From positions 160,001-224,000 of the forward strand of contig CAVPPB010000003.1 of assembly GCA_963707215.1 (NCBI GenBank): 64,000 nucleotides of DNA, read 5' to 3'. Under the pieces are notes generated by a model. It did not search any database. It saw only the letters and a list, made by a program, of their open reading frames with translations, and was not told the origin of the DNA. The position numbers were made by a program, and so were the translations under genes. Each line of letters starts with the position of its first letter. The first letter of the stretch is position 1. Source of the DNA: an uncultured Chloroflexia bacterium. Its GTDB lineage: Bacteria > Chloroflexota > Limnocylindria > Limnocylindrales > CSP1-4. Shown here piece after piece: positions 7,928 through 60,814 of the stretch.

Positions 7928-8944
7928 TCAGGCCCGGGGGTGGGCTCGGGCGTACATGTCCCGGATCCGCTCCCCGGAAAGGTGAGTGTACAACTGGGTC
8001 GTGCTGATGCTGGCGTGTCCCAGCAGCTCCTGGACCACCCGCAGATCGGCCCCGCCCTCCAGGAGGTGGGTGGCGAACGAGTGGCGCAGGGTGTGCGGGC
8101 TCACCCGATCGCCGAGGCCGGCCCGGGCGGCCGCGTTCTTGACGGTCGCCCAGGCCTGCTGGCGCGCCAACCGGCGGCCCCTGGCCGTCAGGAACAGCGG
8201 TCCGCCGGCGATGGGATGGACGTGACCCATGGCCAGCCAGGCCGCGCGCGGTCCCTCGATCCACCGCCCCAGCCACTCGAGGGCGACGTCCCCGACCGGC
8301 ACCAGCCGCTCCTTGTCGCCCTTGCCGACCACCCGGACGAAGGCGCCTTCGCGTGACAGGTCGTCGAGATCCAACCCCAGCGCCTCGGAGACCCGGAGGC
8401 CCGCCGCGTAGAGGAGCTCGAGGAGCGCCCGATCCCGGGTCGCCATGGCCGCCCCCGATACGTCGCCCACGGCCTCGCCAGCCGCCTCCAGGAGAGCCTC
8501 GACCTCGTCGACGGTGAGCGTCTCCGGCAGGAGGCGGGACTGCCGGGGCAGCTCCAGACGAGCGGCCACATCCGTCGCGATGAGGGACTCTCCGAAGGCG
8601 AACCGGTAGAACCCCCTGATCGAGGCCGCCCGGCGGCGGAGGCTCGTCGGCGCGAGCCCGGAGCGGCCGTCGAGCCTCCCCGACCCAGGCCGACCACGTC
8701 CAGCGGCCCGCACCAGGTGCGCCTCGGCGGCCTCCGGCCCGACGGCCCAGTCGGGTCCGGCGTCGACCGCGAAGGCCCGCAGGTCGCCGGCATAGGCCCG
8801 CAGCGTCGCTTCCGACAGTCCTCGCTCGACGCGCAGATGGTCGAGGTATCCGGCGACCGCGCGCGAGAAACGCGGGTCGACTGCCGACGGGCCGCCCGAC
8901 GGATCGACGACGCTCGAGCGGCGCGCGCGCGCGACCGGGGTCAC
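7928..8944 (-). CDS. xerD: Tyrosine recombinase XerD
   Basis: [58 protein letters not shown]. Confidence 0.88.
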   Translation of the reverse strand: MTPVARARRSSVVDPSGGPSAVDPRFSRAVAGYLDHLRVERGLSEATLRAYAGDLRAFAVDAGPDWAVGPEAAEAHLVRAAGRGRPGSGRLDGRSGLAPTSLRRRAASIRGFYRFAFGESLIATDVAARLELPRQSRLLPETLTVDEVEALLEAAGEAVGDVSGAAMATRDRALLELLYAAGLRVSEALGLDLDDLSREGAFVRVVGKGDKERLVPVGDVALEWLGRWIEGPRAAWLAMGHVHPIAGGPLFLTARGRRLARQQAWATVKNAAARAGLGDRVSPHTLRHSFATHLLEGGADLRVVQELLGHASISTTQLYTHLSGERIRDMYARAHPRA

Positions 8945-10689
8945 CCTGCCGCCACGAGCCGCTCGCCGCGCCACCCCTCGGCCCGGTCGAGCAGCTCCCG
9001 GGCGCTCGCCCGGGCGGCCTCGCCGCCCGTCGAGCCGGCGAGCATGTGGGCGAGTTCCTCCGTCCGGGCATCGCCGACCAGCGTCCGGACCGTCGTCGAG
9101 GTGCGGCCGCCACGCTCGATCTTCTCGATCCGCAGGTGCGTGTCGGCATACGCCGCGATCTGCGCCAGGTGGGTCACGCAGAGGACCTGGTGGCGCCGGC
9201 CGAGGGCCCACAGGGCGCGTCCGACGGGCTCGGCGCTGCGCCCGCCGATGCCGCTGTCGATCTCGTCGAACACCAGGGTCGGCGTGTCGTCCAGTCCGGC
9301 GAGGACCTCGCGGATCGCCAGAGCCACGCGCGAGAGCTCGCCGCCGGACGCGATCCGGGCCAGCGGCCGGGCCGGCTCACCCGGGTTGGGGGCGAAGCGG
9401 AAGACGACTTCGTCCACGCCGGTCTCGTCGAAGGCCACCGCGTCGCCGCCGAGCTCCACGGCCGGTTCGTTCGGCCCGGCGATCCGACGGCCCAGGCCGA
9501 CCGAGAAGGCGTCGCTGGGGAAGTCGAGGGGCTGGAGGGTCCGACCGACCGCCTCCGCCAGACCCTCGGCCGCCCGGGCCCGCCGTGCGGAGAGCTCGGC
9601 CGCGGCCGTCGCCACGTCCTTCAGCAGGGTCGCCTCGAGCTCGCTGCGACGGGCCCGCTCGGCATCCAGCCCCTTCAGGCGCTCGACCTCGGATCGGCAC
9701 TGCTCGCCATGGGCGATCACGGTCGCCTCGTCGTCGCCATAGCGGCGCTCCAGGGCGTAGATGAGCGACAGGCGCTCCTCCAGTCGAGCCAGCTCGGCTG
9801 GATCGTGGTCGACGACCTCGGCCAGCGCGCGCGCCTCCTCGGCAGCGTCCTCGAGCTCGGCGGCGAGCCCACCCAGGCGCTCGGCGAGCGGAGCGAACCG
9901 CGGATCGAGACGGGCGACCCGCTCGGCCGTCGTCGCTGCCGTGGCCGTCCCATCGCGGGCGCCGCCAGGATCCCCGAGCAAGGTCTCCCGGATCTCCCCC
10001 ACAGCGCGGATCGTGGTCTCGGCGTGTCGGACCGCTGCCAGGCGTCCCTCGATCTCGGTCGCCTCCCCGGGGCGCAGCCGGGCCGCCTCGATCTCCCGAG
10101 CCTCGTGGTCGAGGACCTCCAGCCGTCGGGCGAATTCGCGGGCGTCGGCGGGGAGTCCGGCCAGGACCTCGCGGTTCTGACGCCAGGCCTCGACGGCCAC
10201 GGCCACGGCGGCCCGGTCCCCCTGGTGCTCCCCGAACGCATCGAGGAGGTCGCGCTGGTGGCGATCGTCGAGGAGTCGCTGCTGATCGTGCTGACCGTGG
10301 ATGTCCACGAATTGGCCGACCGTGTCGGCCAGGCGGCCGGCCGTCACGGCCTCGTCGCCGAGCCGAGCCGACGATCGGCCCGCGGCGCTGACTTCGCGGA
10401 CCACGGTCAGATGACCATCGGGTCGCTCGAAGCGGGCCTCGACCCGGGCACCGGGTGCCCCGTGGCGCACGAGGCCCGTGTCCGCCCGGGCACCGAGGAC
10501 CAGGCCCAAGGCATCGATGAGCAGGCTCTTGCCGGCACCGGTCTCGCCGCTCAGGACGATCAGGCCCGCCGAGAGGTCGACGCGGACCCGCTCGAGGAGA
10601 GCGAGACCTTCGACGGCGAGCGAAGCCAGGCTGCCGGAGCCGACCGCGTCCCGGCCTGCCGGATCCTGCCGCTCGGCACCGGCGGTCAC
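8941..10689 (-). CDS. recN: DNA repair protein RecN
   Basis: GETGAGKS, IASGGELSR, FDEIDSGIGG, CVTHLAQIAA. Confidence 0.95.
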   Translation of the reverse strand: MTAGAERQDPAGRDAVGSGSLASLAVEGLALLERVRVDLSAGLIVLSGETGAGKSLLIDALGLVLGARADTGLVRHGAPGARVEARFERPDGHLTVVREVSAAGRSSARLGDEAVTAGRLADTVGQFVDIHGQHDQQRLLDDRHQRDLLDAFGEHQGDRAAVAVAVEAWRQNREVLAGLPADAREFARRLEVLDHEAREIEAARLRPGEATEIEGRLAAVRHAETTIRAVGEIRETLLGDPGGARDGTATAATTAERVARLDPRFAPLAERLGGLAAELEDAAEEARALAEVVDHDPAELARLEERLSLIYALERRYGDDEATVIAHGEQCRSEVERLKGLDAERARRSELEATLLKDVATAAAELSARRARAAEGLAEAVGRTLQPLDFPSDAFSVGLGRRIAGPNEPAVELGGDAVAFDETGVDEVVFRFAPNPGEPARPLARIASGGELSRVALAIREVLAGLDDTPTLVFDEIDSGIGGRSAEPVGRALWALGRRHQVLCVTHLAQIAAYADTHLRIEKIERGGRTSTTVRTLVGDARTEELAHMLAGSTGGEAARASARELLDRAEGWRGERLVAAG

Positions 10690-18899: not shown

Positions 18900-19008
18900 T
18901 CGACAGGCTCCTCGGTGTTCCTGGCTCGGACAGGGGCCGCCCTGGGGTGGCGACCGACCGGCGTCACCCTATCACCGACCTTGTCGGGGCGGCAAACGTC
19001 GTTCCCGG

Positions 19009-20235
19009 TCAGGCCGGGAGGGCGATCACGTCGCGAGGGAACCGGGTGAGCAGGTCGACGCGTCGGGCGCCGCTGTCGACGTGGACGAGGTCCTCGATCC
19101 GGACCCCCGTCCGACCGCCGAGGTAGACGCCCGGCTCGACCGAGAAGACCGTCGGGCTCGGGAGCGGGGTCTCCTGCGCCACCCGCGAGAGGCTCGGCGC
19201 CTCGTGCGTGGCCAGGCCGATCCCGTGGCCGGTCCCGTGGCCGAACCGCTGGCCGTGTCCTGCGGCCGCGATGATCTCGCGAGCGGCCGCGTCGACCGCT
19301 CGGCCCGAGGGCAGCACCCCCTCGCCGACCGACCGCTCCAGCAACCCGATGGCGGCGGCCTGGGCCCGGGCGACCAGGTCGTAGAGCCCGAGATCGCGCA
19401 CCGCGGGCTCGCCGAGGAAGAGGGTCCGAGTCATATCGCTGCGGTAGCCGGCCACCTGCGCGCCGAAGTCGAAGAGCATGACCCGACCGGACCGGAGCCG
19501 CCGAGGGCCCGGCGAGCCGTGCGGAAGGGCGGCCTGTGACCCCGCCAGCGCGGCGACGTCGAAGGCCAGGGCCTCGGCCCCCTGCTCGCGCATGAGGATC
19601 TCGAGACGCCAGGCCAGCTCGCGCTCGGTGGTTCCGACGCGGACGTGCGGCAGCAGCGCCGCCAGGGCTCGATCCGCAACGGACGCGGCAGCCGCGATCC
19701 GCTCCACCTCGGGCGCTTCCTTGACGGCCCTGGCGTCGTCCACCCAGCGGCCGGCCGGGACGAGCTCCACGTCCGGTGCGGCCGCCGCCAGCGCCTCGTA
19801 CAGCCCATGGCTGATGTCGCCGACGGGCACGGCGACCCGCCTGGCCCCGATGGTGCCGACGAGCTCCGGCCAGCTGGCCGGCAGGTCGTACGTCACGGCC
19901 TCCACGCGCGAGCCGGGCGATTCGCGACGGCACTGCAGGGTGTACCTCGTGTCGGCCAGGACGACCACCTCGTCCATCGAGACGAGGAACCGACCCGAGT
20001 GACCCGCGACCTTCTCCTCCCCGTCGCCCAGGACGACGCCGGTGAGGTAGCGGATCTCCTCGCGACGGAGCCCGAAGTAGGCGTCGACCCCGGCCTCGGC
20101 CAACTGCTCGCGCAGGCCGGCCAGCCGCCGTGGACGTGCCTCGCGGTCGGCCTCGGCCCACTGCCGGATCCGGCGAGCCGTCGGCGGGGCTGCGAAGTCG
20201 GCCGGGACGGGCAACCGCCGAGGAGCGCGGCCCAT
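19009..20235 (-). CDS. pepP: Xaa-Pro aminopeptidase (M24)
   Basis: ALPHG, FDFGA..GYRSDMTRT, HGTGHGIGLATHE, SVEPGVY, GVRIED. Confidence 0.9.
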   Translation of the reverse strand: MGRAPRRLPVPADFAAPPTARRIRQWAEADREARPRRLAGLREQLAEAGVDAYFGLRREEIRYLTGVVLGDGEEKVAGHSGRFLVSMDEVVVLADTRYTLQCRRESPGSRVEAVTYDLPASWPELVGTIGARRVAVPVGDISHGLYEALAAAAPDVELVPAGRWVDDARAVKEAPEVERIAAAASVADRALAALLPHVRVGTTERELAWRLEILMREQGAEALAFDVAALAGSQAALPHGSPGPRRLRSGRVMLFDFGAQVAGYRSDMTRTLFLGEPAVRDLGLYDLVARAQAAAIGLLERSVGEGVLPSGRAVDAAAREIIAAAGHGQRFGHGTGHGIGLATHEAPSLSRVAQETPLPSPTVFSVEPGVYLGGRTGVRIEDLVHVDSGARRVDLLTRFPRDVIALPA

Positions 20236-20238
20236 CAG

Positions 20239-20266
20239 AGGTAGCCGTACAGTTGCACGGTAAGCA
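20239..20266. repeat. Left att junction: 12-bp core plus arm ACGGTAAGCA
   Basis: Core identical to 26508-26519; arm 20257-20266 is 9/10 inverted to 26494-26503. Confidence 0.85.
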
Positions 20267-20337
20267 ACACTACCGCGACGGCTCGTGATGAAGGGTTGCC
20301 TCGATCGTGCGCACGGCGCGATGGTAGCGCGGGGGAC

Positions 20338-20371
20338 GGCCCCCGGTCGCCCGCCGCTCCGCTGGCCTGCC
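20338..20371 (+). repeat. Degenerate copy (R0) of the array repeat
   Basis: ggcccccggtcgcccgccgctccgctggcctgcc resembles the consensus. Confidence 0.5.
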
Positions 20372-20391
20372 GGAGCCGGGCAGGATGGGGG

Positions 20392-20991
20392 TCAGTCGCT
20401 CGAGCAGTGGATCCTTCGCTGCCACGCGCGCTCCCGTCGCTCGTGCTCAGCGTGTTCTGCGGCCGGGGTGTAGACGCGCACCTCGACGGTCGGGCCGACG
20501 AGGACGGAGAGCGCCGTCCGTGTCCGCCGCGACTCGCTGATCCACAGGACCACGCCGACCGTCGGACGCGGGTCGGATCGCCGGACGCGCTCGGCATCGG
20601 ACTCGATCAGGTATCCGGCTTGTTTCACTCCGTCCGCGCTCGTGACGACGATGCCGTCGGGGTCCTCGACCAGGACGATCCGCCGCCCGAGCGCGAACGC
20701 GTCGGCCTGCGCGTCGGGGAGGAGGTCGGTCACCCGTAGCAACTTGGCCCCGGCGGCGAGGAACTCGTCGGGGTAGCCACGGTCGCCCCACGTGAGCATC
20801 TTCCCGTCCGTAGGGTCTGAGAGCGTCACGCCAGAGGTTCGCTCTCGCCCTTCGCTGTAGTTCCAGAAGAGGTGCGCCGGCATGGTCACCGACCCGACGG
20901 TCACCTCGGCGAGCTGATCGTCTCGTCCGGTCGCGCCCTGCTCGAACGGGACCGTGGTGCTACCTCCGAAGAGGTTGCGAAGGAAGCCCAT
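20392..20991 (-). CDS. Hypothetical protein (array unit 1, 199 aa)
   Basis: GGAGGA RBS before ATG; MGFLRNLFGG N-terminus. Confidence 0.7.
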   Translation of the reverse strand: MGFLRNLFGGSTTVPFEQGATGRDDQLAEVTVGSVTMPAHLFWNYSEGRERTSGVTLSDPTDGKMLTWGDRGYPDEFLAAGAKLLRVTDLLPDAQADAFALGRRIVLVEDPDGIVVTSADGVKQAGYLIESDAERVRRSDPRPTVGVVLWISESRRTRTALSVLVGPTVEVRVYTPAAEHAEHERRERAWQRRIHCSSD

Positions 20992-21056
20992 CTTCCATGT
21001 CCTCCGGCTGGACCTCGGACCAGCGTACTGCGCCCGCCGGGGATGAGGACCGAAAC

Positions 21057-21088
21057 GGCCCCCGTCGCCCGGCCGTGGGCTGGTCGCC
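21057..21088 (+). repeat. Array repeat R1
   Basis: GGCCCCCGTCGCCCGGCCGTGGGCTGGTCGCC. Confidence 0.95.
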
Positions 21089-21164
21089 TCCCCCTGGGCG
21101 AGAACGCGCCGACGGGCCGAGGAACGGATCTGCAACGCCCTCCCATCTCAGGCGTCACCTATGC

Positions 21165-21560
21165 ATGGTCGAGAGTCTCCGCGCTCAGCTCCGACGGCAC
21201 ATCTACGTCACTGCCGCGCTCATCGGGCCGCCCGCGATCTTCATCGGGTTCCTGGCCGCCATCCTCGGCTGGGCGTTGTTCCCCGACGTGGGCTGGGTCC
21301 GCCTCGACGAGGATGGAGACGAGATCCCCCTACTCCACATCGCGATCTTCTCGGTCGTCTGGATCTTCGCCCTTTACCTGCTGAGCGCCGCGGTTCTCGG
21401 GAAGCGCATCAGCCTGATGGTCAGCGAGGAGCACCGGGCCTACGCCCCGCCAGGGTCCTTCCCCCGACGGCCGCGGGGCAACGGCTACTGGATGGTCGCG
21501 GCCGGCTCGGGCATCGCCGTGTTCTTCATCGTGGCTGCGGCCATGGGATGGCTCACCTAG
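21165..21560 (+). CDS. Hypothetical membrane protein, ~3 TM (array unit 2)
   Basis: Three hydrophobic segments; stop codon 6 nt before R2. Confidence 0.7.
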   Translation: MVESLRAQLRRHIYVTAALIGPPAIFIGFLAAILGWALFPDVGWVRLDEDGDEIPLLHIAIFSVVWIFALYLLSAAVLGKRISLMVSEEHRAYAPPGSFPRRPRGNGYWMVAAGSGIAVFFIVAAAMGWLT

Positions 21561-21566
21561 CAGGCC

Positions 21567-21598
21567 GGCCCCCGTCGCCCGGCCGTGGGCTGGTCGCC
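21567..21598 (+). repeat. Array repeat R2
   Basis: Identical 32-mer to R1; similarity continues about 30 bp downstream. Confidence 0.95.
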
Positions 21599-21706
21599 TT
21601 CCCCCTGAGCGGCGAGATCGCGCCGGCCGGCCCGGAGCGGGCGATCTCCGCCGGCTCCGCGGACTACGCCGACTGGCTCGCCTGTCCGGAGTGCGTCACC
21701 TACCGC

Positions 21707-22240
21707 TCAACACTTGGTTTCCTGGTTGGCATGCAGCCGCAGCCGCGCCCGTCTGCTCGCCGCGTACGCGGTCAGGGCGACGAACGCAAGGAGGCACGCG
21801 ACCGCGTACATCAACCCCTGCGCCGCGGGCGTCTCCGGCGCGACCGCCGTGTCCGGGAGTGCGGACACCGTGACGTCCACGGCGCCGGCGCAATCGGCTC
21901 CCGGGACGCTCGCCGTCACCGTCCAAGCGCCCTCCTGGTTCCCCCAAAAAGCATGCACGAAGAGGAAGTCTCCCGCCGCGTCCGCGATCCCCGGCGAGAA
22001 GTCGCCGAACGGGACTCCGTTCCACGTGAAGGTCAGGTCGATCTGCGCGCCGGGCACGAACGAGCCCCAGAACGTGATCTCTTCTAGCTCCACAGTAATG
22101 CTCGTGCTGCCCTCGTCGCCGGGGGCCGGGTCGATCGCAGCGCGGAGCACGCAGTCGCCCGGTGCCGCGGCGACGGGCGGCGCGGCCGCGAGCGTGACCG
22201 CAAGGAGTACAGCGGCAAACGAAACCGAGATGCACCGCAC
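21707..22240 (-). CDS. Secreted protein with LPxTA-type C-terminal sorting signal (array unit 3)
   Basis: Signal peptide FAAVLLAVTLAAA; LPDTA + TM + RRARLR tail; GGGAGG RBS before GTG. Confidence 0.7.
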   Translation of the reverse strand: MRCISVSFAAVLLAVTLAAAPPVAAAPGDCVLRAAIDPAPGDEGSTSITVELEEITFWGSFVPGAQIDLTFTWNGVPFGDFSPGIADAAGDFLFVHAFWGNQEGAWTVTASVPGADCAGAVDVTVSALPDTAVAPETPAAQGLMYAVACLLAFVALTAYAASRRARLRLHANQETKC

Positions 22241-22398
22241 AGCAGGACCCTCCCGGGACGCCGCATGCGGGTCGGGTCCGCCAGTGGCTCGACACGGTCC
22301 TAGGCAGCCAGGGTTGGGACCGGGTCTCATCGCCCCCCGCGATGGCGCGGACGATGCGGCCGGCTGCACCGGCAGTCAAGATGCGTCGGTCATCGAAC

Positions 22399-22430
22399 GG
22401 CCCCCGTCGCCCGGCCGCGGGCTGGTCGCC
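22399..22430 (+). repeat. Array repeat R3
   Basis: 31/32 identical to R1. Confidence 0.95.
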
Positions 22431-22475
22431 TTTCCCGCTGCAACGCCTCGCTGCCTGTGACGTCAACCTCTTGAG

Positions 22476-22910
22476 ATGAGATCGCAGGGGATCGGCCCGC
22501 TCACGGACAGCGGTGACGGCGACCGCTGGACGACGGCGGTCGGCGCGGCGCGGGCCTTCGTCATCGGTTCGGTCGGGACGGCGGTCGCCGTAGCCGGCTG
22601 GGTGGCGCTCGTCCAGCTTCCAGCCCTCATCGAGAGCCTCGGCGCGCTGGTGTTCTTCGGCCTGCCGCCCCTGCTGGCCGCCATGGTCGGGGCAGCCACC
22701 GCCCGGTGGGGCGACCGGACGATGGAGGCCGCGATCGCCGGTGCCCTCGGCGGCTGGCTCACCTGTGCCGCCCTTCCGCATGCGCTGACCCTCGTCGGTG
22801 GCCGGGTCGATCCGGTCTTCTACCCCTACTGGCTCATGGCCGCCGGCACGGCCGGGCTCCTCGCCTACGGCGTCGGGTTCGCCGCCGGGTGGTGGTTCTC
22901 GGAGCGCTAG
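22476..22910 (+). CDS. Hypothetical membrane protein, ~4 TM (array unit 4)
   Basis: Hydrophobic ORF; stop codon 2 nt before R4. Confidence 0.7.
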   Translation: MRSQGIGPLTDSGDGDRWTTAVGAARAFVIGSVGTAVAVAGWVALVQLPALIESLGALVFFGLPPLLAAMVGAATARWGDRTMEAAIAGALGGWLTCAALPHALTLVGGRVDPVFYPYWLMAAGTAGLLAYGVGFAAGWWFSER

Positions 22911-22912
22911 AC

Positions 22913-22944
22913 GGCCCCCGTCGCCCGGCCGTGGGCTGGTCGCC
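22913..22944 (+). repeat. Array repeat R4
   Basis: Identical 32-mer to R1. Confidence 0.95.
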
Positions 22945-22992
22945 CGTAACGCTTCGCCGCCCATGGCGCCCTGGTCACGGGAGGACCGGCCG

Positions 22993-23265
22993 GTGGAGAG
23001 CCGGAATCTCCTCGTGGCCCTCGGCATCTTGCTCGGGGTCGCGATCGGGGCGTTCGTGATGGCGAACCGGTCACGTTCTCGCAGCCCGGGCAGCAGGGGC
23101 CAGCCTGTTGGAGTCGGCTGCCTCTGGGCCCCGGTCCTCGGAGCTCTGTCGCTCGCCGGCGGCTGCAGCGTCCTGGTCGTCAGCGTTGCTCCCCTCGAGA
23201 TGACGTCACGCCGACGGAGATGCTGCGCTCCCGTCACCCGGAACCCCAGGTCGGGTCGTGGCTAG
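22993..23265 (+). CDS. Small hypothetical membrane protein, 2 TM (array unit 5a)
   Basis: GGAGG RBS, GTG start, LLVALGILLGVAIGAFVM and a second hydrophobic stretch. Confidence 0.5.
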   Translation: MESRNLLVALGILLGVAIGAFVMANRSRSRSPGSRGQPVGVGCLWAPVLGALSLAGGCSVLVVSVAPLEMTSRRRRCCAPVTRNPRSGRG

Positions 23266-24113
23266 CGGGGTGCGACGACCGGCTCGAGCGACTCGAGCAT
23301 CGACTCGATCGAGGCGGCGACCTCGCGATCAGCTTCGTCGACGTAGGCGGTGATGAACAGGATGTCACCGGCGCCGAGCACCGGGTCCGGAACGCCGATG
23401 ACGGCGCACCAGGTCGCCTCGATCCGGCGGGGATCGCTTGGTCGATCGGCTGATCGCCCCGGCTGGCCCGGGGCGGGCTCGATGACCGCGACCCAGCGGG
23501 CGCGGACCGCCGGACCGAATGGCAGCTCGACGCGGTCGGCGACCGACGCTTCCAGGCCGGTCGCCCTGAAGCCGGGGTAGTCGGTCGCGACGGACCCTTC
23601 GGAGTCGAGGTCCTCCTCCACGAGGGCGAGGATCTCCTCGGCCGTCGCCGGCGCTCCCCAGGAACCGACGTTGACCCGGAGCATCGCGTCAACGCGGTCG
23701 TCGGTCGAGGGGAACCAGGCCAGGAACGCGGCCGGGAACGCGTCGCCGGACGTGGAGGCGATCCACAGCTCGTGCGCGGCCGGATGCGGCTGGAGACCGC
23801 CGAAGCCCGGATGCTCCTCGAGCATCCGCAGCATCGCCGCCTCGTATCCGGGACCGCTGCTGGCGCCATGCCAGCCATCGGGCAGGTCCATCCTGAACGG
23901 AAGGCCCGCGAATGGATCCGGTGTCGGCGGGCCGGCCCGGGTCGTCGTGGGGGCCGGCGTCGGTCTCGGCGTCGATCCAGCCGAGGACGTCGCCACCGAT
24001 CCGGACCCGGGTGTCGCTCCTGGCGCAAGCGTGGGGGTGGTCCCGCATCCGGCCACCAGGAGCGAGCCGAGAGCCAGCGGCGGTAGCGATCGCAGGACCC
24101 GCTTCACGACCAT
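23262..24113 (-). CDS. Hypothetical lipoprotein with Pro/Thr-rich linker (array unit 5b)
   Basis: Lipobox LVAG-C after a basic/hydrophobic N-terminus; PTPAPTTT linker. Confidence 0.75.
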   Translation of the reverse strand: MVVKRVLRSLPPLALGSLLVAGCGTTPTLAPGATPGSGSVATSSAGSTPRPTPAPTTTRAGPPTPDPFAGLPFRMDLPDGWHGASSGPGYEAAMLRMLEEHPGFGGLQPHPAAHELWIASTSGDAFPAAFLAWFPSTDDRVDAMLRVNVGSWGAPATAEEILALVEEDLDSEGSVATDYPGFRATGLEASVADRVELPFGPAVRARWVAVIEPAPGQPGRSADRPSDPRRIEATWCAVIGVPDPVLGAGDILFITAYVDEADREVAASIESMLESLEPVVAPR

Positions 24114-24187
24114 ATCAGTGCCCCCGCGCTATGGCGGTCAGGGTGCCGGTCGTGGAACGGACGGGTCTAGAGGCCGAGGGCCTGAAC

Positions 24188-24219
24188 GGACGCGGGGCCA
24201 CGGCAGCGGGCTGACCGCC
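24188..24219 (+). repeat. Degenerate copy of the array repeat
   Basis: 22/32 identical to R3 without gaps; same GAAC before and TTCCCG after. Confidence 0.6.
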
Positions 24220-24323
24220 TTCCCGTCCAGATCCCTGCTGCGACATGTACTACGACAGCCTCTGCGGGGCTACGATGGCCCCGACGCGCGGCGACCCCTC
24301 GGTAGGCACCTGGAGGGCGAACG

Positions 24324-25691
24324 ATGGCAGCGAACCGCTCCGCTCAGGAGCGCCCGGAGGCGCGCTGGCAACGGGCGAGGCTCATCCCGGCGGTCGGCAT
24401 CAAGGGCGATGTCGAGCAGGAGCTGCGTGCGACCTCGGCACTCCTGGCCGTGATGGTCGCGGTGCCGGACTTCGGACGTGAGATCGTGGCTCGCGTCGGA
24501 GCACCGGGAGGCCGGATCTCCACCTTCACCGAAGTTCGCTTCGATCGCGATGACGGCAAGACACTCCGTCCGGACGGGGCCATCCTCGTTGAGCGGGGCA
24601 GCACCCGGTGGACCTGCCTCGTCGAAGTCAAGACTGGGAAGAACGAGTTGCAGACGGCCCAGATCGAGGCGTATCTCGATCTGGCCCGGGCTCACGCCTT
24701 CGACGCCGTCCTGACGATCTCGAACAGCATCGCCTCCGACTCGACCGAGCTGCCCGTGGCGATCGACCAGCGCCGTGCCCGGGGCTTGAAGATCCGTCAC
24801 CTCTCGTGGTGGCGCATCCTCACCACCGCGATCGTCGAGAAGGAGCACCGCGGGATCGACGACCCCGACCAGGCGTGGATCCTGGGCGAGTTGATCCGCT
24901 ATCTCCAGGACGAACGATCGGGTGCGTCGGGCTTCGAGGAGATGGGGCCCAACTGGGTTGCCATTCGCGACGGAGCCATGCGCCAGACGCTCCGCCAGAG
25001 TGACCCGGCGGTGCGGGACATCGCCGACCGGTGGGAGCAGTTCATCGAGTACGTCAGCCTCGATCTCAGGCAGACGCTGGGACGACCAGTCGTGCCGCTC
25101 TGGGCTCGGAAGAGCACCCGCGCCACGCGACTTCAGGAAGCGACGCGGAGTCTCGTCCAGGACGGCACGCTCAGGGGCTCCATCAAGGTCCCGGACACGG
25201 CGGCCCCGCTGGACTTGGAGGCCAATCTGCGGACGCAGCGCCTGACCACGAGCGCCGAGATCGCGGCACCACGGGAGGGTCGGGCGCAGACGCGCATCAA
25301 CTGGATGCTCCGACAGGCGAAGGAGATGCCCGCCGATCTCCGTGTCGAGGTGCGTTACGTCAATGCGCGAGAGCACCCCGCGATGTTGCTCGGGAGCGCC
25401 ATCGACCGGCCTGAGCGGCTCCTGTATGGACCCGACCCGAAGCGGGAACCTCGGTCCTTCCAGCTGGCCCTGACGAAACCGCTCGGCCGGAAGGGCGGGA
25501 AGGGCTCCGGCTCGTTCCTTGGCGACTCGCGCGAGCAACTCTTGTTGTTCTATCGCGAGGTGCTGCAGCAGGTCCGCGCCTGGCAGCCACCTGCGCCGCG
25601 CCTGCCCGAAGCCGCCAAGGCTCCGGATTCCGCGGACTCGGGTCTTCCGAGCGGGGCACCGACCGACGTGGACCCGCTCGCAGGGGACTAA
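24324..25691 (+). CDS. Putative PD-(D/E)XK nuclease-domain protein (array unit 6, 455 aa)
   Basis: TEV.F...RPDGAI...LVEVKTG...QIEAY restriction-endonuclease-like motif. Confidence 0.7.
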   Translation: MAANRSAQERPEARWQRARLIPAVGIKGDVEQELRATSALLAVMVAVPDFGREIVARVGAPGGRISTFTEVRFDRDDGKTLRPDGAILVERGSTRWTCLVEVKTGKNELQTAQIEAYLDLARAHAFDAVLTISNSIASDSTELPVAIDQRRARGLKIRHLSWWRILTTAIVEKEHRGIDDPDQAWILGELIRYLQDERSGASGFEEMGPNWVAIRDGAMRQTLRQSDPAVRDIADRWEQFIEYVSLDLRQTLGRPVVPLWARKSTRATRLQEATRSLVQDGTLRGSIKVPDTAAPLDLEANLRTQRLTTSAEIAAPREGRAQTRINWMLRQAKEMPADLRVEVRYVNAREHPAMLLGSAIDRPERLLYGPDPKREPRSFQLALTKPLGRKGGKGSGSFLGDSREQLLLFYREVLQQVRAWQPPAPRLPEAAKAPDSADSGLPSGAPTDVDPLAGD

Positions 25692-25700
25692 GTCTTCCGT

Positions 25701-25724
25701 CCCTCCGTCGCCCGGGCCTGGGCT
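25701..25724 (+). repeat. Partial degenerate repeat copy after nuclease stop
   Basis: ccctccgtcgcccgggcctgggct. Confidence 0.45.
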
Positions 25725-25769
25725 CCGACTGGCCCGGGAAGCTGGCGCTCGGCGCATTGAGCCCAAACT

Positions 25770-25802
25770 GGCCCCCGTCGCCCCGGCCGTGGGCTGGTCG
25801 CC
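25770..25802 (+). repeat. Array repeat R5
   Basis: Consensus with one extra C; followed by TCCCCCTGGACGAGATCGC as in R1/R2. Confidence 0.93.
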
Positions 25803-25888
25803 TCCCCCTGGACGAGATCGCTATCCGGCCACGGAGCCGGGGGCGAGCGACACCCTAGGTGGCGCGGCTCACCGCAGACTTACCAGCC

Positions 25889-26113
25889 ATGCGTCGCCGC
25901 GATCTCGAGCGCCTCCTTCTCGCCGGTCGAGCGGCCCACCTCCCCCGGCTCGTCGATGCTGGATACGCCCCAGGAGCCGCCGAGAAGGCGATGGTGGCGT
26001 GGGAGGCCAGGGCCGACGCCGAGGGCCGAGAGCGCGGCGAGGGGGCGTTCTGGGACGGCATCGAGGCGTGGGCAGCGGAGCAGCGGCCCTGGCGGCGGGA
26101 TGTCCCGCATTGA
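25889..26113 (+). CDS. Small hypothetical protein (74 aa)
   Basis: ORF MRRRDLERLLL...FWDGIEAW; CAGACT hexamer 8 nt upstream of ATG. Confidence 0.55.
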   Translation: MRRRDLERLLLAGRAAHLPRLVDAGYAPGAAEKAMVAWEARADAEGRERGEGAFWDGIEAWAAEQRPWRRDVPH

Positions 26114-26145
26114 CGGCCGCGCCCGACCGGTCCTAGCGTGCAACC

Positions 26146-26280
26146 GTGACCACTCGGCGGAAGACACTCACGGTCCTGCTCGTCGCCCTGCTGGTGGTCG
26201 TTGCCGCCCTCGCGCTGTACGTCGGGGTCCAGGTGTGGCAGATCCTCGAGATGCACTCGGGCGGCATCCCGAGGTTGTAG
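26146..26280 (+). CDS. Single-TM micropeptide (44 aa)
   Basis: MTTRRKTLTVLLVALLVVVAALALYVGVQVW...; TAGCGT hexamer 6 nt upstream. Confidence 0.5.
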   Translation: MTTRRKTLTVLLVALLVVVAALALYVGVQVWQILEMHSGGIPRL

Positions 26281-26384
26281 CCGGCTTTGGTGCGGTCCTG
26301 ACCGTCGTCTTGGTCGTCGGCTTCGTCATGGCTGGCGATCCCTTCCCCGTGCCGGACGTCCGGTCGGGGTCAGGGGGTGGGTAG

Positions 26385-26513
26385 ATGAAGCGTTGGCTCG
26401 TGGTGGTCGGGTTGGTCGTGCTTGTAGCCGTGGTCGTGGTCGTGGTTTGGCCTGTCGTGTTTCCGCCAGGCGGGAGGATGGTCGGGTGTGAACTGCTAAC
26501 CGTCTATAGGTAG
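26385..26513 (+). CDS. Single-TM micropeptide (42 aa) ending in the att core
   Basis: MKRWLVVVGLVVLVAVVVVVVWPVVF... Confidence 0.4.
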   Translation: MKRWLVVVGLVVLVAVVVVVVWPVVFPPGGRMVGCELLTVYR

Positions 26514-26519
26514 CCGTAC
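26494..26519. repeat. Right att junction: arm TGCTAACCGT plus 12-bp core
   Basis: Core 26508-26519 identical to 20239-20250; overlaps mltG stop. Confidence 0.85.
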
Positions 26520-27853
26520 TTGCGGAGCTTCTCCTCGTGCTCGGCCAGCGACTTCGAGAAGTCGTGAGCCCCCCCACCGTCGGGGATGGCCACGAAGTAG
26601 ACGTAGCCGTCGTCCTGGTCCGGCGCCAGCGAGGCGTCGATGGAGGCAGCCGTCGGCGACACGATCGGTCCGGGGATGAGCCCGCGGACCCGGTAGGTCT
26701 GGTAGCCGGCCAGCTCGGGAGGGAACTCGACCCCGGCCAGGGGCACGCCGAGGGGCTTCCAGAAGAAGTACTCCTGCCACTGCTCGAACGGCAGCTCGCC
26801 AAGGTTCAGCGTGTCGTTGCCCCAGATCACCGTGGGGTCCGCGTTGAGAAGCGAGCCCGTGTCGAGGCGGTTCTGGTAGACGCCGGCGATGAGCGGGCGC
26901 TCCTCGTCGAGGACCGCCTCTCGCTCCACGATCGAGGCGAGGGTGAGGATCTCGTAGAGGCCGAGGCCGCGCACCTCGGGCACGGCGATCCGATCCGGCC
27001 CGACCTCCTCGTAGAACTCGTCGAGCATCATCCGGACGAGGGCCTCGGCGTCGGTCCGGCCATCGGGATCGGTCCGCAGCCGGTACGTGGACGGGTAGAG
27101 ATAGCCCTCCAGCGTCGCCCCCTCCGGGAGCTCCACCCACGGGTATTCGGCGAGGAGGGCCGGCGGCGGGGCCGTGACGAGGTCGTAGAACGCCTTCGGA
27201 TCGACCCCGGACTCGACCGTCTGGAGCTTGGCCGTCATCTGCTCGAGGCGGATGCCCTCCTTGAAGGTCACATCGGTCGCCGTGACCACGATCCGGTCCT
27301 CCTCGAGCGCGCGCACCACCTCCCGCGGGTCCATGTCCCGGCGGAGGCGGAACGGCCCGGCCTCGAGACGATCGCCCAGCGACGCCTCCCAGGCGGCGTA
27401 ATCGAAGGCCGGCCGCGACAGGATGAGACCGTCCGCGAGCAGCCGGTCACCGACGGTCGTCACCGTGTCGCCGGCTTCGACGACCCAGGCGACCTCGGAC
27501 GGGTCCGACGACGCCGGCGTGGCCAGCTCGTCCGCGAGCGACTCCTCGACGAGCGAGGCGACGAAGGGAAGCCGCCAGGCGCCGGGGTTGTCGATCGCCC
27601 AATCGGCGACGGCCGCGGCGGCGAGGGGCCGGAAGACGGTGACGGCGAGGAACGCCATGACGACGACGATCCCGCCGACGAACAGGAGGAAGCGCAGGAA
27701 GCTCGGCCCGCTACCGCGCCGCGGAGGGCGCCGGCGACCCGGAGCGCCGTTCGGTCGCACCGGCCCGATGCCCGGGTCCACTGTCGGCCCGTTGCCGATC
27801 GGGTGGGCCTGCGACCGACCGCCCCGCGGCGCTCCTCCTCGTCTGACCGTCAT
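26504..27853 (-). CDS. mltG: Endolytic transglycosylase MltG (YceG)
   Basis: TM anchor, LEGYLYPSTY, LTLASIVEREA, IAGVYQNRL, LNADPTV, GLIPGPI. Confidence 0.93.
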   Translation of the reverse strand: MTVRRGGAPRGGRSQAHPIGNGPTVDPGIGPVRPNGAPGRRRPPRRGSGPSFLRFLLFVGGIVVVMAFLAVTVFRPLAAAAVADWAIDNPGAWRLPFVASLVEESLADELATPASSDPSEVAWVVEAGDTVTTVGDRLLADGLILSRPAFDYAAWEASLGDRLEAGPFRLRRDMDPREVVRALEEDRIVVTATDVTFKEGIRLEQMTAKLQTVESGVDPKAFYDLVTAPPPALLAEYPWVELPEGATLEGYLYPSTYRLRTDPDGRTDAEALVRMMLDEFYEEVGPDRIAVPEVRGLGLYEILTLASIVEREAVLDEERPLIAGVYQNRLDTGSLLNADPTVIWGNDTLNLGELPFEQWQEYFFWKPLGVPLAGVEFPPELAGYQTYRVRGLIPGPIVSPTAASIDASLAPDQDDGYVYFVAIPDGGGAHDFSKSLAEHEEKLRKYGYL

Positions 27854-58203: not shown

Positions 58204-59771
58204 CAGCTGGCGCGCTCGCCGCGGACCGATCGCACGGCGATCCGGACGATCTGGTCGAGCTCGACGACGTGGAGGAGCCGCGACGCACCGACGTACACGC
58301 CCACGGCCACGGCCGTGGCGGCGGCGAGCTCGAGGAGGGTACCGACCTTGCCGGGCTCGGGACCAAGGATCCCCGCGACGGCCGTCAGGATCATGGCGGC
58401 GGGCGCGGCTGCGAGGATCGACAGGAGCGCGAACCCGAGCCAGGCACGGACCTGGTCCCCGCCGCGGAACGAAGGGTGCCGAAGGCCCAGGCGCCACAGC
58501 AGGATGGCCACCTCGACCCAGGCCCCGACCGCGATGCCAAGAGCCAGGCCCGCGAGGCCCAGCGGGCCGACGGTAAGGATCGAGACGGCCACGTTGACGG
58601 CGACCGAGATGATGGCCGCAGCCACCGGCGTCCGGGTGTCCTGGCCGGCGTAGAAGGCTCGGGCGAGGATCGCGATGGCGCCGTGGGCGGTGAGCCCGAG
58701 CAGGAACACCAGGAGCGTGATCGAGGTGAGGTCGATGGCGGCCTGGTCGAACCGCCCGTAGTCGAACAGCAGGGTCACGATCTGGACACGGGTCACGATG
58801 GCGATGGCCGTCACGAACATCATGGCATAGGCCAAGGGGCGGAGCGCGCCGGCCACCATCCGAGCGAGCTCCTCGGTCGCCCCTCCGGCGGCGGATCGTG
58901 ACAGCGTCGGCAGGAGGACGATGCCCAGGGGCACGGCGAGGAAGCCGATCGGCAGCTGGAGGATCGTGAACGCCACGGCATAGGCGGTGATCGAGCCGGC
59001 AGCGAGCGTCGAGGCCAGGGTCGTGTTGACGATGAAGGTGATCTGGGCGGCTCCCATGCCCAGGGCCCTGGGACCAAGGAGAGCGAAGACCTTGCGGGCT
59101 TCGGGGTCGTGGACTCCGATGACCGCGTGATAGAAGAACGCCGTCCTCCGTCGGACCGACGGTAGCTGGACGAGCAGGTGGCCGAGCGAGCCGAACACGA
59201 CCCCGATCGCCAGGGCGGTGACCCCCATGGACGGCCCCAGGACGAGGGCAGCCACGATGATGCCGAGGTTGTAGGCGATCGGAGCGATCGCCGCCGCGGC
59301 GAAGCGGCCGGAGGCGTTGAGGAGGGCCGTCACCACCGCCCCCAGGGCCAGGAAGATCGGCCCCAGGATCATCAACCGGGTCAGGTCCACGGCCAACTCC
59401 GTCGCAGCCGCGTCGAAGCCGGGCGTGATAAGGGGAACGATCGCTGGAGCCGCCAGCCAGAAGAGGATCGACAGTCCGATCGAAGCGACCAGGGTGAGGT
59501 TGAACACCGTCGAGACCACACGCCAGGCCCGCGACTCGAGGTCGCTGGCCAGCAGGCCCGACACAACCGGCACCAGCGCCGACGCGATGGCGCCCGCAGC
59601 GACCAGCTGGAAGATGAGGTCTGGGATCCGGAACGCGGCGAAGAACGCGTCGACGTCGGTCGTCGCCCCGAAGACGCCGGTGATCGTCGTCATCCGGAGC
59701 CAGCCGAGGACCCGGGACACGAGGAACGCCCCGGAGACGATGGCTCCTGCCCGGGCGAGTGCGACCGTCAT
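58203..59771 (-). CDS. murJ: Lipid II flippase MurJ (MviN)
   Basis: [39 protein letters not shown]. Confidence 0.95.
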
Positions 59772-60814
59772 GTCGTTCCCGACGACCCGGACGACCGGCG
59801 CGTGGCGCCGGCAGGCTGCCCTCCCACCCTGTCACGGTCCTGGTCACCGCCGGTCGCACCGGTCGTCGCCCGCGGATGCGCCGCGCGGTAGGCCGAACGA
59901 AGCCGGGCCGGCGAGACATGGGTGTAGACCTGGGTAGTGCCAAGACTGGCGTGTCCGAGCAGCTCCTGGACGACCCGCAGGTCGGCTCCCCCGTCGAGGA
60001 GATGGGTCGCGAACGAGTGGCGAAGGGTGTGCGGCGACACGCCGGGCGGCAGGCCTGCTCGCCGGCGTAGTCGATCGAGTCGCCCCCGGAGGCCGCGCAC
60101 GCCCAGCGGCCCGCCGCGGTGGTTCAGGAAGACGGCCGAAGGCTCCGGTCCCGGCGACGTGCGGCGGGCCAGCAGCAGCTGGCGGCCGCCGCCCAGGTAC
60201 TCGGCGAGCGCCTCTCGGGCAGGTCGGCCCAGGAGCCCGATCCGCTCCTTGCGGCCCTTGCCGAGCACCCGGATCTCACCCCGTCGCAGGTCGAGGCTTC
60301 GGGTGTCGGCGGCGGCCAGCTCGCTGATCCGCAACCCGGCAGCGTAAGCGGTCTCGACGATCGCGCGGTCGCGTTCGGCGAGTGCGAGCGCCAGCGTCGC
60401 CCGCGGGCCCTCACCGATCGCGGCCAGGTCCTCGTCGACGACCGCCAGCAGGGCCTCGATCTGGCCGAGCTCCAGGACCCGGGGCAGGCGACGTGGCTGG
60501 CGGGGCGTGGCGATGAGGCCCCACGGATCGCCCGGAGCGAGATCGTTCCGGGCCGCCCAGCGGTGGAACGAGCGGATGGCGGCCAGCCGTTGGGCCACCG
60601 AGGTCCGGGCGTGGTCGGCGGCGAGGCGGGCGAGGTACGCCCGGAGAACGGTCCGCGACGGCGAGCGCCAGTCCTGGCCCGACTCGTCGAGCCAGGCCAG
60701 GTAGGCGCCGACGGCGGTCCGGTACGAGCGCTGGGTGTGGATCGACGCGTCGCGGGCGGCGAGGCTGGCGAGGAAACGATCGAGGACGGCTGGCGTGGGA
60801 GGGTCGGAGCTCAC
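59768..60814 (-). CDS. xerC: Tyrosine recombinase XerC
   Basis: [45 protein letters not shown]; follows topA. Confidence 0.88.

What the first reader, a model, noticed from the sequence alone, without database searches (positions are those of the whole stretch)
20338..25846. Integron-like gene-cassette array delimited by a non-canonical ~32-bp repeat
Seen: GGCCCCCGTCGCCCGGCCGTGGGCTGGTCGCC occurs at 21057, 21567, 22399 (1 mismatch), 22913 and 25770 (+1 C). Degenerate copies lie at ~20338, 24188 (22/32, ungapped) and 25701. All copies are co-oriented and intergenic, and I did not see the repeat outside the island. Intervals (~720, 510, 832, 514, 1275, 1582 bp) each hold one unrelated ORF, or one convergent pair, and repeats start 2-6 nt after the stop codons of plus-strand genes (21560, 22910). 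Unlike classic integron arrays, the genes alternate strand while the repeat does not. Inference: the repeat is a recombination or insertion site for a gene-capture/shuffling system, with gene-sized 'spacers'.
Basis: partly seen in the sequence, partly recalled or inferred. Interest (0 to 1): 0.92.

Follow-up and report, generated by a model that had tools for sequence, protein, structure and literature searches.

The report
Repeat-bounded gene units, not an integron
A 34-88-base repeat really does bracket single unrelated genes in this uncultured Chloroflexota genome, but it behaves as the boundary piece of riboswitch-driven gene units in variable genome islands rather than as an integron site, and how the genes between the repeats get exchanged is still open.

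Summary
The 32-mer occurs 4 times at up to 1 mismatch and once with an extra C, all on the + strand and all between genes. None is expected by chance.

In the whole genome, 18 copies fall in six loci and are co-oriented within each array. The exact core occurs only in this genus. A diverged long form occurs in two more genera.

The integron reading fails its tests:
- There is no integron integrase, resolvase, HUH or IS110 enzyme. The genome has only XerC/D-like genes and one frameshifted integrase.
- The repeat shows no attC-like traits.

The repeat (R) has a 34-nt core and a long form of about 88 nt. In 17 of 17 adjacent pairs it lies back-to-back with a promoter-like 72-nt repeat (E70) or a c-di-GMP-II-GCG riboswitch. 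Read in that direction, the long form follows one gene's stop and precedes the next unit.

The arrays sit in variable islands, often beside tRNA genes, and their gene content differs between sister species.

Best reading, at 0.45: R is an inter-unit boundary or regulatory module. Gene turnover is real, but its mechanism is unproven.

The parts
21055..21118 (+). R copy: core plus a partly deleted tail. It lies between the start of the minus-strand gene 20392-20994 and the start of the plus-strand gene 21165-21560.
   Evidence: Rfull q2-68, 90%
21565..21652 (+). R long form (about 88 nt). It starts 4 nt after the stop of 21165-21560 and ends 54 nt before the stop of the convergent gene 21707-22234.
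   Evidence: 81.7 bits with model R1
22397..22436 (+). R short form (core). It lies 52 nt upstream of, and antiparallel to, the riboswitch, and 40 nt before the plus-strand gene 22476-22910.
22911..22944 (+). R short form (core only), starting directly after the stop at 22910.
24186..24223 (+). Diverged R copy (R'), back-to-back with E70.
   Evidence: E 0.1
25701..25724 (+). Partial R copy (23 nt), 10 nt after the stop at 25691.
   Evidence: D2, 87%; E 0.43
25768..25821 (+). R copy with one extra C and a diverged tail.
22260..22346 (-). c-di-GMP-II-GCG riboswitch aptamer (RS) in front of the secreted-protein gene 21707-22234.
   Evidence: 53.3 bits, gathering score 47.9
24121..24192 (-). E70: a promoter-like 72-nt repeat directly upstream of gene 23262-24113. 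Its 3' end equals the first strand of the riboswitch in other copies.
25872..26086 (-). T: a repeat of 130-215 nt that elsewhere starts at the stop of E70/RS-driven genes. It carries an ORF on the + strand (25859-26113) that shows no sign of protein-level constraint.
20392..20994 (-). Gene, 200 aa, no family match.
21165..21560 (+). Gene, 131 aa. Hydrophobic stretches suggest a small membrane protein (read by eye). No family match.
21707..22234 (-). Gene, 175 aa. Signal-peptide-like start and hydrophobic C-terminal tail (read by eye). Riboswitch-controlled.
22476..22910 (+). Gene, 144 aa, membrane protein by eye. Together with its R and leader it has a 77%-identical DNA paralogue at C1:103793-104427.
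23262..24113 (-). Gene, 283 aa, lipoprotein-like start (by eye), driven by E70.
24324..25691 (+). Gene, 455 aa. It belongs to a widespread unannotated family with a weak PD-(D/E)xK-type hint.
   Evidence: (VRR_NUC E 0.19)
19009..20235 (-). Left flank: M24 peptidase (pepP-like).
26504..27853 (-). Right flank: YceG/MltG.

Best explanation
R is the outermost module of a composite intergenic element restricted to this clade. It is not an attC site.

That gene may be followed by T, and then by the next reverse-complement R.

In this frame the long form sits 0-100 nt after one gene's stop and abuts the next unit's E70. It therefore marks the boundary between transcription units. It most likely acts as a transcript-end or insulator hairpin, as an upstream protein-binding site of the E70 promoter, or as both. 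That function is inferred.

R copies share one orientation within an array because the E70/RS units do. Genes on the other strand are interleaved between units.

The arrays lie in variable islands, about half of them beside tRNA genes. Because near-identical modules flank unrelated genes, either the modules or the genes have been moved. The most economical route is homologous recombination between the repeated modules. This is inferred and not shown.
For: 1. Orientation lock. In 17 of 17 cases where an R hit lies within about 120 nt of an E70 or riboswitch hit, the two are antiparallel, and mostly abut within 0-4 nt. Four of these rest on weak R hits. On every array or contig, all R copies oppose all E70/RS copies.

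2. Position. Of 25 long-form copies, the tail side faces a gene stop within 100 nt in 12 and a gene start within 150 nt in 1. The core side faces a start within 150 nt in 7 (using a crude gene caller).

3. Link to the promoter element. About 17 of 32 E70 copies carry R, or its central 18-20 nt, just upstream. The rest carry other modules. The first 16 nt of R recur 50-60 nt upstream of riboswitches in other genera.

4. Diverged relatives.
- Another genus (G005) has its own co-oriented 67-nt repeat at the same place. It aligns with reverse-complement R.
- A model of both finds such elements in 4 of 61 relatives.
- The only consensus pairing is a 5-bp hairpin. It shows compensatory changes between the genera and G-U pairs on the reverse-complement strand.

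5. No recombinase. No IntI, resolvase, Y1-HUH or IS110 gene was found.

6. Islands. 3 of 6 R loci lie within 3 kb of a tRNA, which random placement reaches in 284 of 20000 trials. In the sister species, 6 of 12 array contigs scanned carry a tRNA.
Against: - In the window, 3 of 6 copies (21565, 22911, 25768) follow plus-strand genes and have no E70 or riboswitch unit beside them.
- In 3 of 6 copies no co-directional gene reads into reverse-complement R.
- About 9 short forms end at the same base (position 34 +/- 2) and keep 97-100% identity. This suits a defined protein or recombination site better than a hairpin.
- Single-sequence folds are no better than shuffles (z -0.67 to +1.19). The consensus fold is weak: -15 kcal/mol and only 5 pairs.
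- The core is identical in two species whose orthologous DNA is 72-82% identical. That is more conservation than promoters or terminators usually need.
- No transcript data were available.
Confidence: 0.45

Rival explanations
1. R is a true site-specific recombination site of an integron-like cassette system with an unknown enzyme. It may work together with E70 as a composite attP-like junction. Circular units carrying a gene would insert at an existing R, which would leave R on both sides and keep the array co-oriented.
For: - Arrays are co-oriented whatever the gene strand. The chance under random orientation is about 2^-13 for the four G000 arrays and 2^-10 for eight G001 contigs.
- The core has sharp ends. 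The left end falls within +/-2 nt in about 30 of 33 copies, and about 9 short forms share one right end.
- Repeats abut stop codons on either side.
- The gene bodies of the window array have no DNA match in the sister species (0 of 6), whereas the repeats match at 85-100%.
- The R/E70 junction reads as an imperfect 9-5-9 palindrome (by eye).
- Decayed integrases lie beside two arrays.
Against: - No intact recombinase other than XerC/D-like genes was found in either species (genomes 85% and 90% complete).
- R does not resemble the AT-rich dif-like candidate.
- The two decayed integrases are unrelated to each other and sit by tRNAs, like ordinary island integrases.
- At C3:339 kb a two-gene block carries R/E70 in its middle, not at its ends.
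- Homology between paralogous or orthologous units ends at E70, at a start codon or just after a stop, not always at R.
- No clean excision joint was seen (short contigs only).
Confidence: 0.2
2. R is a non-autonomous selfish repeat of the MITE or REP type, with terminal inverted repeats of about 10 bp. It has spread into intergenic DNA and has no role for the host.
For: - The ends of the long form are complementary over 9-10 nt (by eye). The same end motif is kept in the G005 relative.
- Copies lie in intergenic DNA, often at gene 3' ends.
- Truncated and tandem partial copies exist.
Against: - There are only about 18 copies. They are confined to six loci rather than dispersed.
- Orientation is strict within arrays and relative to E70/RS (17 of 17).
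- No RAYT/IS200-type or IS110 gene was found.
- The short forms keep a perfect core.
- Target-site duplications were not examined.
Confidence: 0.15
3. The R core is itself a promoter or operator for genes on its own strand, for example for an alternative sigma factor such as the ECF sigma encoded beside array A.
For: - Plus-strand genes start 40-140 nt after five window copies.
- R, leader and membrane-protein gene are conserved together in a paralogous pair.
- An AAC-N17-CGT spacing can be read at the 5' edge of R when it is preceded by GA (by eye; this motif type is recalled, not tested).
- An ECF sigma gene lies 300 nt downstream of, and co-directional with, the R at C1:101181.
Against: - Only 5 of 38 copies have a co-directional gene start within 150 nt on the 3' side, while 15 face a convergent stop within 100 nt.
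- In array B no gene is co-directional with R.
- The GA before the core is missing in about 40% of copies.
Confidence: 0.1

Closest known systems
Integron cassette arrays and CALIN (clusters of attC sites lacking an integrase)
   Same: - Co-oriented repeats separate single, mostly unrelated ORFs of unknown function.
- The repeats abut stop codons.
- The repeats are more alike than the genes between them.
- There are several short arrays per genome, with no integrase nearby. [quoted passage not shown]
   Different: - No IntI is present in the genome.
- The repeat is conserved in sequence, not only in structure, and lacks the terminal boxes and palindromic fold of attC.
- Many units carry their own promoter-like element and riboswitch.
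- Genes lie on both strands.
- The repeat's orientation follows the promoter modules.
Mosaic intergenic repeat systems: REP/BIME of enterobacteria and the Neisseria intergenic mosaic elements with minimal mobile elements (recalled, not read here)
   Same: - Several short repeat families are combined in a modular way between genes.
- They lie often at 3' ends.
- They mark regions where whole genes differ between strains and can be swapped by homologous recombination.
   Different: - There are far fewer copies here, and they are confined to a few islands.
- Orientation is strict.
- The repeats are physically tied to a riboswitch class.
- No RAYT-type gene is present.
Putative mobile promoters ('Promoter reuse in prokaryotes', PMC3575422; only the abstract in the search listing was seen)
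   Same: Highly similar upstream regions lie in front of unrelated genes within a genome and between related genomes.
   Different: The reused block here is composite (R + E70 + riboswitch). Parts of it also occur at gene 3' ends and form arrays.
Xer-dependent modules (dif or pdif modules, IMEX; recalled)
   Same: Gene-sized modules are bounded by short sites, need no dedicated recombinase gene, and would rely on the XerC/D pair that this genome has.
   Different: R is GC-rich and lacks the dif-type architecture. A separate AT-rich dif-like candidate exists at C3:40333. pdif sites alternate in orientation (recalled), whereas R copies do not.

Membership tests
Integron (complete) | Integron integrase IntI adjacent to the array | tested here: not met
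   TIGR02249 scores at best 83 bits on the genome and 113 bits on the protein, against a cut-off of 265. Those hits are XerD/XerC-like proteins at window 7928-9211 and 59768-60814, which lie 12 and 34 kb from the array. The genome is 85% complete.
Integron / CALIN | attC sites: imperfect palindromes of 57-141 nt whose structure is conserved, with R''/L''...L'/R' boxes (the GTTRRRY-type ends are recalled) | tested here: not met
   - The long form contains no GTT or AAC box at its ends (by eye).
- Folds are no better than shuffles.
- Consensus folds are weak.
- Conservation lies in sequence blocks.
- The IntegronFinder attC model itself could not be run.
Integron / CALIN | Cassettes are mostly promoterless ORFs co-oriented with the sites | tested here: not met
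   In the window, genes alternate in strand. The minus-strand genes carry E70 or riboswitch leaders.
REP/BIME (RAYT-dependent) | A RAYT/Y1 transposase gene and many dispersed palindromic copies | tested here: not met
   PF01797 gives no match. There are 18 copies in six loci.
MITE | Terminal inverted repeats, target-site duplication, dispersed copies | tested here: inconclusive
   The ends of the long form are complementary over 9-10 nt. Target-site duplications were not examined. Copies are clustered, not dispersed.
Xer/dif modules | Sites with dif architecture, bound by XerC/D | tested here: not met
   XerC/D-like genes are present. R does not resemble the dif-like candidate found with recalled short probes.
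tRNA-targeted integrative islands | An integrase next to a tRNA, with the island flanked by direct repeats of the tRNA 3' end | tested here: inconclusive
   - tRNAs adjoin 3 of 6 R loci.
- One frameshifted integrase lies next to tRNA-Lys.
- No tRNA 3'-end repeat was found within 30 kb downstream of 4 tRNAs.
- The window array has no tRNA.
c-di-GMP-II-GCG riboswitch (RF03170) | Match to the Rfam covariance model above the gathering score, upstream of a gene | tested here: met
   The match at 22260-22346 on the minus strand scores 53.3 bits against a gathering score of 47.9, and lies 25 nt before the gene's start. This applies to the neighbouring element, not to R.

The most novel reading that the evidence does not exclude
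Limnocylindrales may carry an integrase-independent gene-cassette system, or one that uses an unknown enzyme. In it, self-contained units (promoter, orphan riboswitch, one envelope gene, R) would be captured at R sites, with the crossover at the fixed R/E70 junction. This would build co-oriented arrays at tRNA genes and other hot spots, as a functional analogue of integrons in which each cassette brings its own ligand-controlled promoter.
Probability: 0.2. Interest if true: 0.85.

Novelty: new variant of a known kind. Interest (0 to 1): 0.5.

Why it matters
If the modules only mark and regulate units, the locus still gives a compact map of how an uncultured Chloroflexota lineage wires dozens of fast-changing surface-protein genes to one orphan riboswitch class. 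There are 16 matches in this genome, and 23 of 36 family members carry it. That would make the ligand and regulon of the c-di-GMP-II-GCG variant testable.

If the repeats are recombination sites, this would be a second, independent solution to gene capture beside integrons, in a phylum where little is known about mobile DNA.

Either way, the identical modules around unrelated genes are a clear case of modular reuse of non-coding DNA.

Tried and rejected
Leads that gave nothing:
- RNA family scan. Rfam holds nothing for R, E70 or T.
- RNA structure. Single folds of four copies on both strands gave z-scores between -0.67 and +1.19. RNAalifold on 15 long copies gave -15 kcal/mol.
- Sigma-70 and terminator pattern scan of 20000-26600: 0 promoters and 1 terminator-like site, unrelated to R.
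- T as a protein gene. There was no Pfam hit at E up to 10. Only 6 close hypothetical relatives were found. The 68% amino-acid identity at 84% DNA identity is about what unconstrained change would give (my estimate).
- PADLOC on four island proteins: no hits.
- tRNA-derived att repeats: none found.
- R as a dif-like site: rejected.

Public runs:
- No RNA holder was listed. The six holders had small shares of 0.06-0.11.
- The runs laid were short Logan contigs.
- Depth piles up on the repeats.
- The listed joints have short sides (20-39 nt), so they can come from other copies of the repeats. No clean excision or circle joint could be read.

- IntegronFinder could not be run.
- Supplementary files of papers were not consulted.

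Full report
**Observation.** No match occurred in 100 dinucleotide-preserving shuffles. The copy at 25770 has one extra C. A profile search restricted to 19000-27000 ranks 24201-24223 (E 0.1) and 25703-25724 (E 0.43) next. Both lie above the best hit in the reversed control (E 1.4). The proposed copy at about 20336 (E 5) cannot be told from noise. The spacings are as stated.

The island lies between an M24 peptidase gene (19009-20235) and YceG/MltG (26504-27853). Its ORFs, seven counting the doubtful 22963 ORF, have no Pfam match. GC content is about 72% throughout, with no compositional break.

**Anatomy of the repeat.** Aligning all copies shows a 34-nt core and a long form of about 88 nt, such as 21565-21652. 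The two ends of the long form are complementary over 9-10 nt. About nine copies are core-only and stop at the same position, 34 +/- 2.

Folding gives no support for a strong structure. Z-scores lie between -0.67 and +1.19, and the consensus fold of 15 long copies is -15 kcal/mol. Conservation sits in sequence blocks.

**Distribution.**
- In the window's genome (3.26 Mb, 5 contigs, 85% complete) the core matches 14 times at up to 3 mismatches. The control pattern matches 0 times.
- nhmmer finds 18 copies at E < 0.01 in six loci. There are four arrays: C1:101-102 kb, C1:257-259 kb, the window, and C3:394-398 kb. There are also two single copies.
- Every array is internally co-oriented.
- Among 61 genomes of the order, only this one and its sister species G001 hold the core.
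- A scan of GTDB species representatives returned only G001 contigs, titled Candidatus Limnocylindrales bacterium.
- A scan of JGI metagenomes returned two contigs.

**Other repeats in the same islands.** Searching the island against G001 and against its own genome exposed three further families:
- RS, a c-di-GMP-II-GCG riboswitch, lies at 22260-22346 on the minus strand (53.3 bits against a gathering score of 47.9).
- E70 is a 72-nt element at 24121-24192 on the minus strand. It always lies upstream of, and co-directional with, a gene. Its 3' end is the first strand of RS in other copies.
- T covers 25872-26086. Elsewhere it begins at the stop of E70/RS-driven genes.

T carries an ORF, but that ORF has no family match, only close hypothetical relatives, and no sign of protein-level constraint.

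**Grammar.** In 17 of 17 cases where R lies within about 120 nt of E70 or RS, the two are antiparallel. Usually they abut within 0-4 nt. Four of the 17 cases rest on weak R hits. On every array or contig, all R copies oppose all E70/RS copies.

In G001 the usual order is: reverse-complement R, E70, optional RS, gene, optional T, reverse-complement R, all co-directional. The long form starts 0-11 nt after the stop in five cases.

Over 38 copies, with a crude gene caller, the tail side of long forms faces a stop within 100 nt in 12 of 25 and a start in 1 of 25.

In the window, the three minus-strand genes (20392-20994, 21707-22234, 23262-24113) each have reverse-complement R just upstream of their E70-like or RS leader. 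The three plus-strand genes sit between units. This explains why the repeat keeps one orientation while the genes alternate.

**Relatives of R.**
- RS is common in the family. It is found in 23 of 36 genomes, in none of the 24 small genomes of the sister family, and 16 times in this genome.
- In another genus (G005), a cluster of RS units has its own co-oriented 67-nt repeat 19-44 nt upstream of RS. That repeat aligns with reverse-complement R.
- RNAalifold on the joint alignment keeps only a 5-bp inner hairpin. It shows compensatory changes between the two genera and G-U pairs on the reverse-complement strand. These are effectively one or two independent events.
- A model built from this alignment finds long R-like elements in 4 of 61 genomes: 11, 13, 8 and 1 copies.
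- The first 16 nt of R recur 50-60 nt upstream of RS in G023, G035 and at C3:1273547.

**Test of the integron reading.** The genome holds three tyrosine-recombinase loci. Two are XerD-like and XerC-like, both in the window but 12 and 34 kb from the array. The third is a phage-type integrase broken over three frames, next to tRNA-Lys at the end of array C. The integron-integrase model stays far below its cut-off. No resolvase, Y1-HUH or IS110 gene was found. G001 has two Xer-like genes and one integrase remnant beside an array.

R lacks the ends and fold of attC, taking the definitions from the passages read in PMC4889954. It also does not resemble a dif-like candidate. Membership in integron/CALIN, REP/RAYT and Xer modules is therefore not met. 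The attC covariance model itself could not be run.

**Evidence for turnover.**
- In G001, pepP and mltG lie on one contig, 3978 bp apart instead of 6278. Between them are three other genes and no repeat. By eye these are an ABC transporter pair and a TetR-like regulator; this was not tested.
- None of the six gene bodies of the window array has a DNA match in G001, which is 90% complete. The repeats match at 85-100%.
- Backbone homology of 81% over 3 kb stops at the 3' end of the orthologous tRNA-Leu(caa). Beyond it the two species share only R and E70 pieces.
- At C3:339 kb a 1.35-kb block (gene, reverse-complement R, E70, RS, SRPBCC-like gene) replaces 561 bp of the G001 backbone. Its two genes lie on two different array contigs in G001.
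- Contigs from three public runs hold gene 23192-24113 at about 95% identity and then continue into sequence unlike the window.
- Of 37 array and E70/RS-linked proteins compared all against all, only three pairs are clearly related.
- One membrane-protein gene, together with its R and leader, has a 77%-identical paralogue in array A.

**Islands and tRNAs.** tRNA genes adjoin arrays A, B and C and one E70 locus. In G001 they are present on 6 of the 12 array contigs scanned. In G000, 3 of 6 R loci lie within 3 kb of one of 52 tRNAs, which random placement reaches in 284 of 20000 trials. No tRNA-derived direct repeats were found. The window array has no tRNA.

**Cargo.** The cargo is mostly envelope-related or unknown. 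Identified domains include PKD, CWB2, DUF3558, SnoaL-like and DUF4405, alongside small membrane proteins. There is also one 455-aa protein of a widespread unannotated family with a faint nuclease-type hint.

**Reading.**
- Shown: the repeat is real, clustered, restricted to this clade, locked in orientation to promoter and riboswitch modules, and set in variable islands whose genes differ between sister species.
- Inferred: R acts as the boundary or regulatory module of these units, and the repeated modules promote gene exchange by homologous recombination.
- Against this reading: the perfect, sharply bounded core, and the copies that stand alone after plus-strand genes. These keep a site-specific capture mechanism alive (about 0.2). 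A selfish MITE-like repeat (0.15) and a same-strand promoter (0.1) are weaker.

Noticed in passing
window 22260-22346 (-), and genome-wide: The orphan riboswitch variant c-di-GMP-II-GCG is greatly expanded. There are 16 matches in this genome and up to 22 in a relative. It is found in 23 of 36 genomes of the family and in none of the 24 small genomes of the sister family. It mostly lies in front of small secreted or membrane ORFans.
   Followed up: partly
window 24121-24192 (-); about 14 copies in G000: E70 is a 72-nt upstream element. It contains a 5-3-5 palindrome and two direct 9-nt repeats about 30 nt apart. It is 85-97% identical between copies and between species, and has at least three alternative upstream modules.
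   Followed up: partly
window 25859-26113 (+) / 25872-26086: The T repeat carries an 84-aa ORF. One copy (C3:398950-399181) has an in-frame stop, and several copies are truncated.
   Followed up: partly
window 7928-9211 (-) and 59768-60814 (-): Both Xer-type recombinase genes of the genome lie in this window. The XerD-like ORF, as listed, has an extra N-terminal stretch of about 115 aa.
   Followed up: no
G000 C3:399876-401256 (L056 9876-11256): A phage-type integrase is split over three reading frames next to tRNA-Lys(ctt). It is followed by a GmrSD-like gene.
   Followed up: partly
window 24324-25691 (+): This 455-aa protein belongs to a large unannotated family, mostly Actinomycetota by the Atlas listing. 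It gives a weak VRR-NUC/PD-(D/E)xK hint and no PADLOC hit.
   Followed up: partly
G005 C4:28-37 kb (L082): Another genus has its own array of nine co-oriented 67-nt repeats interleaved with six riboswitch copies and small genes.
   Followed up: partly
G000 C1:about 747100-747200: A run of a short GC-rich unit repeated about six times lies directly upstream of a riboswitch copy.
   Followed up: no
G000 C3:40333 (-): An AT-rich site with dif-like architecture was the only hit of a loose recalled probe.
   Followed up: no
window 21707-22234 (-): The riboswitch-controlled protein ends with an LPDTA-like motif, a hydrophobic stretch and a basic tail. This looks like a sorting signal (by eye).
   Followed up: no
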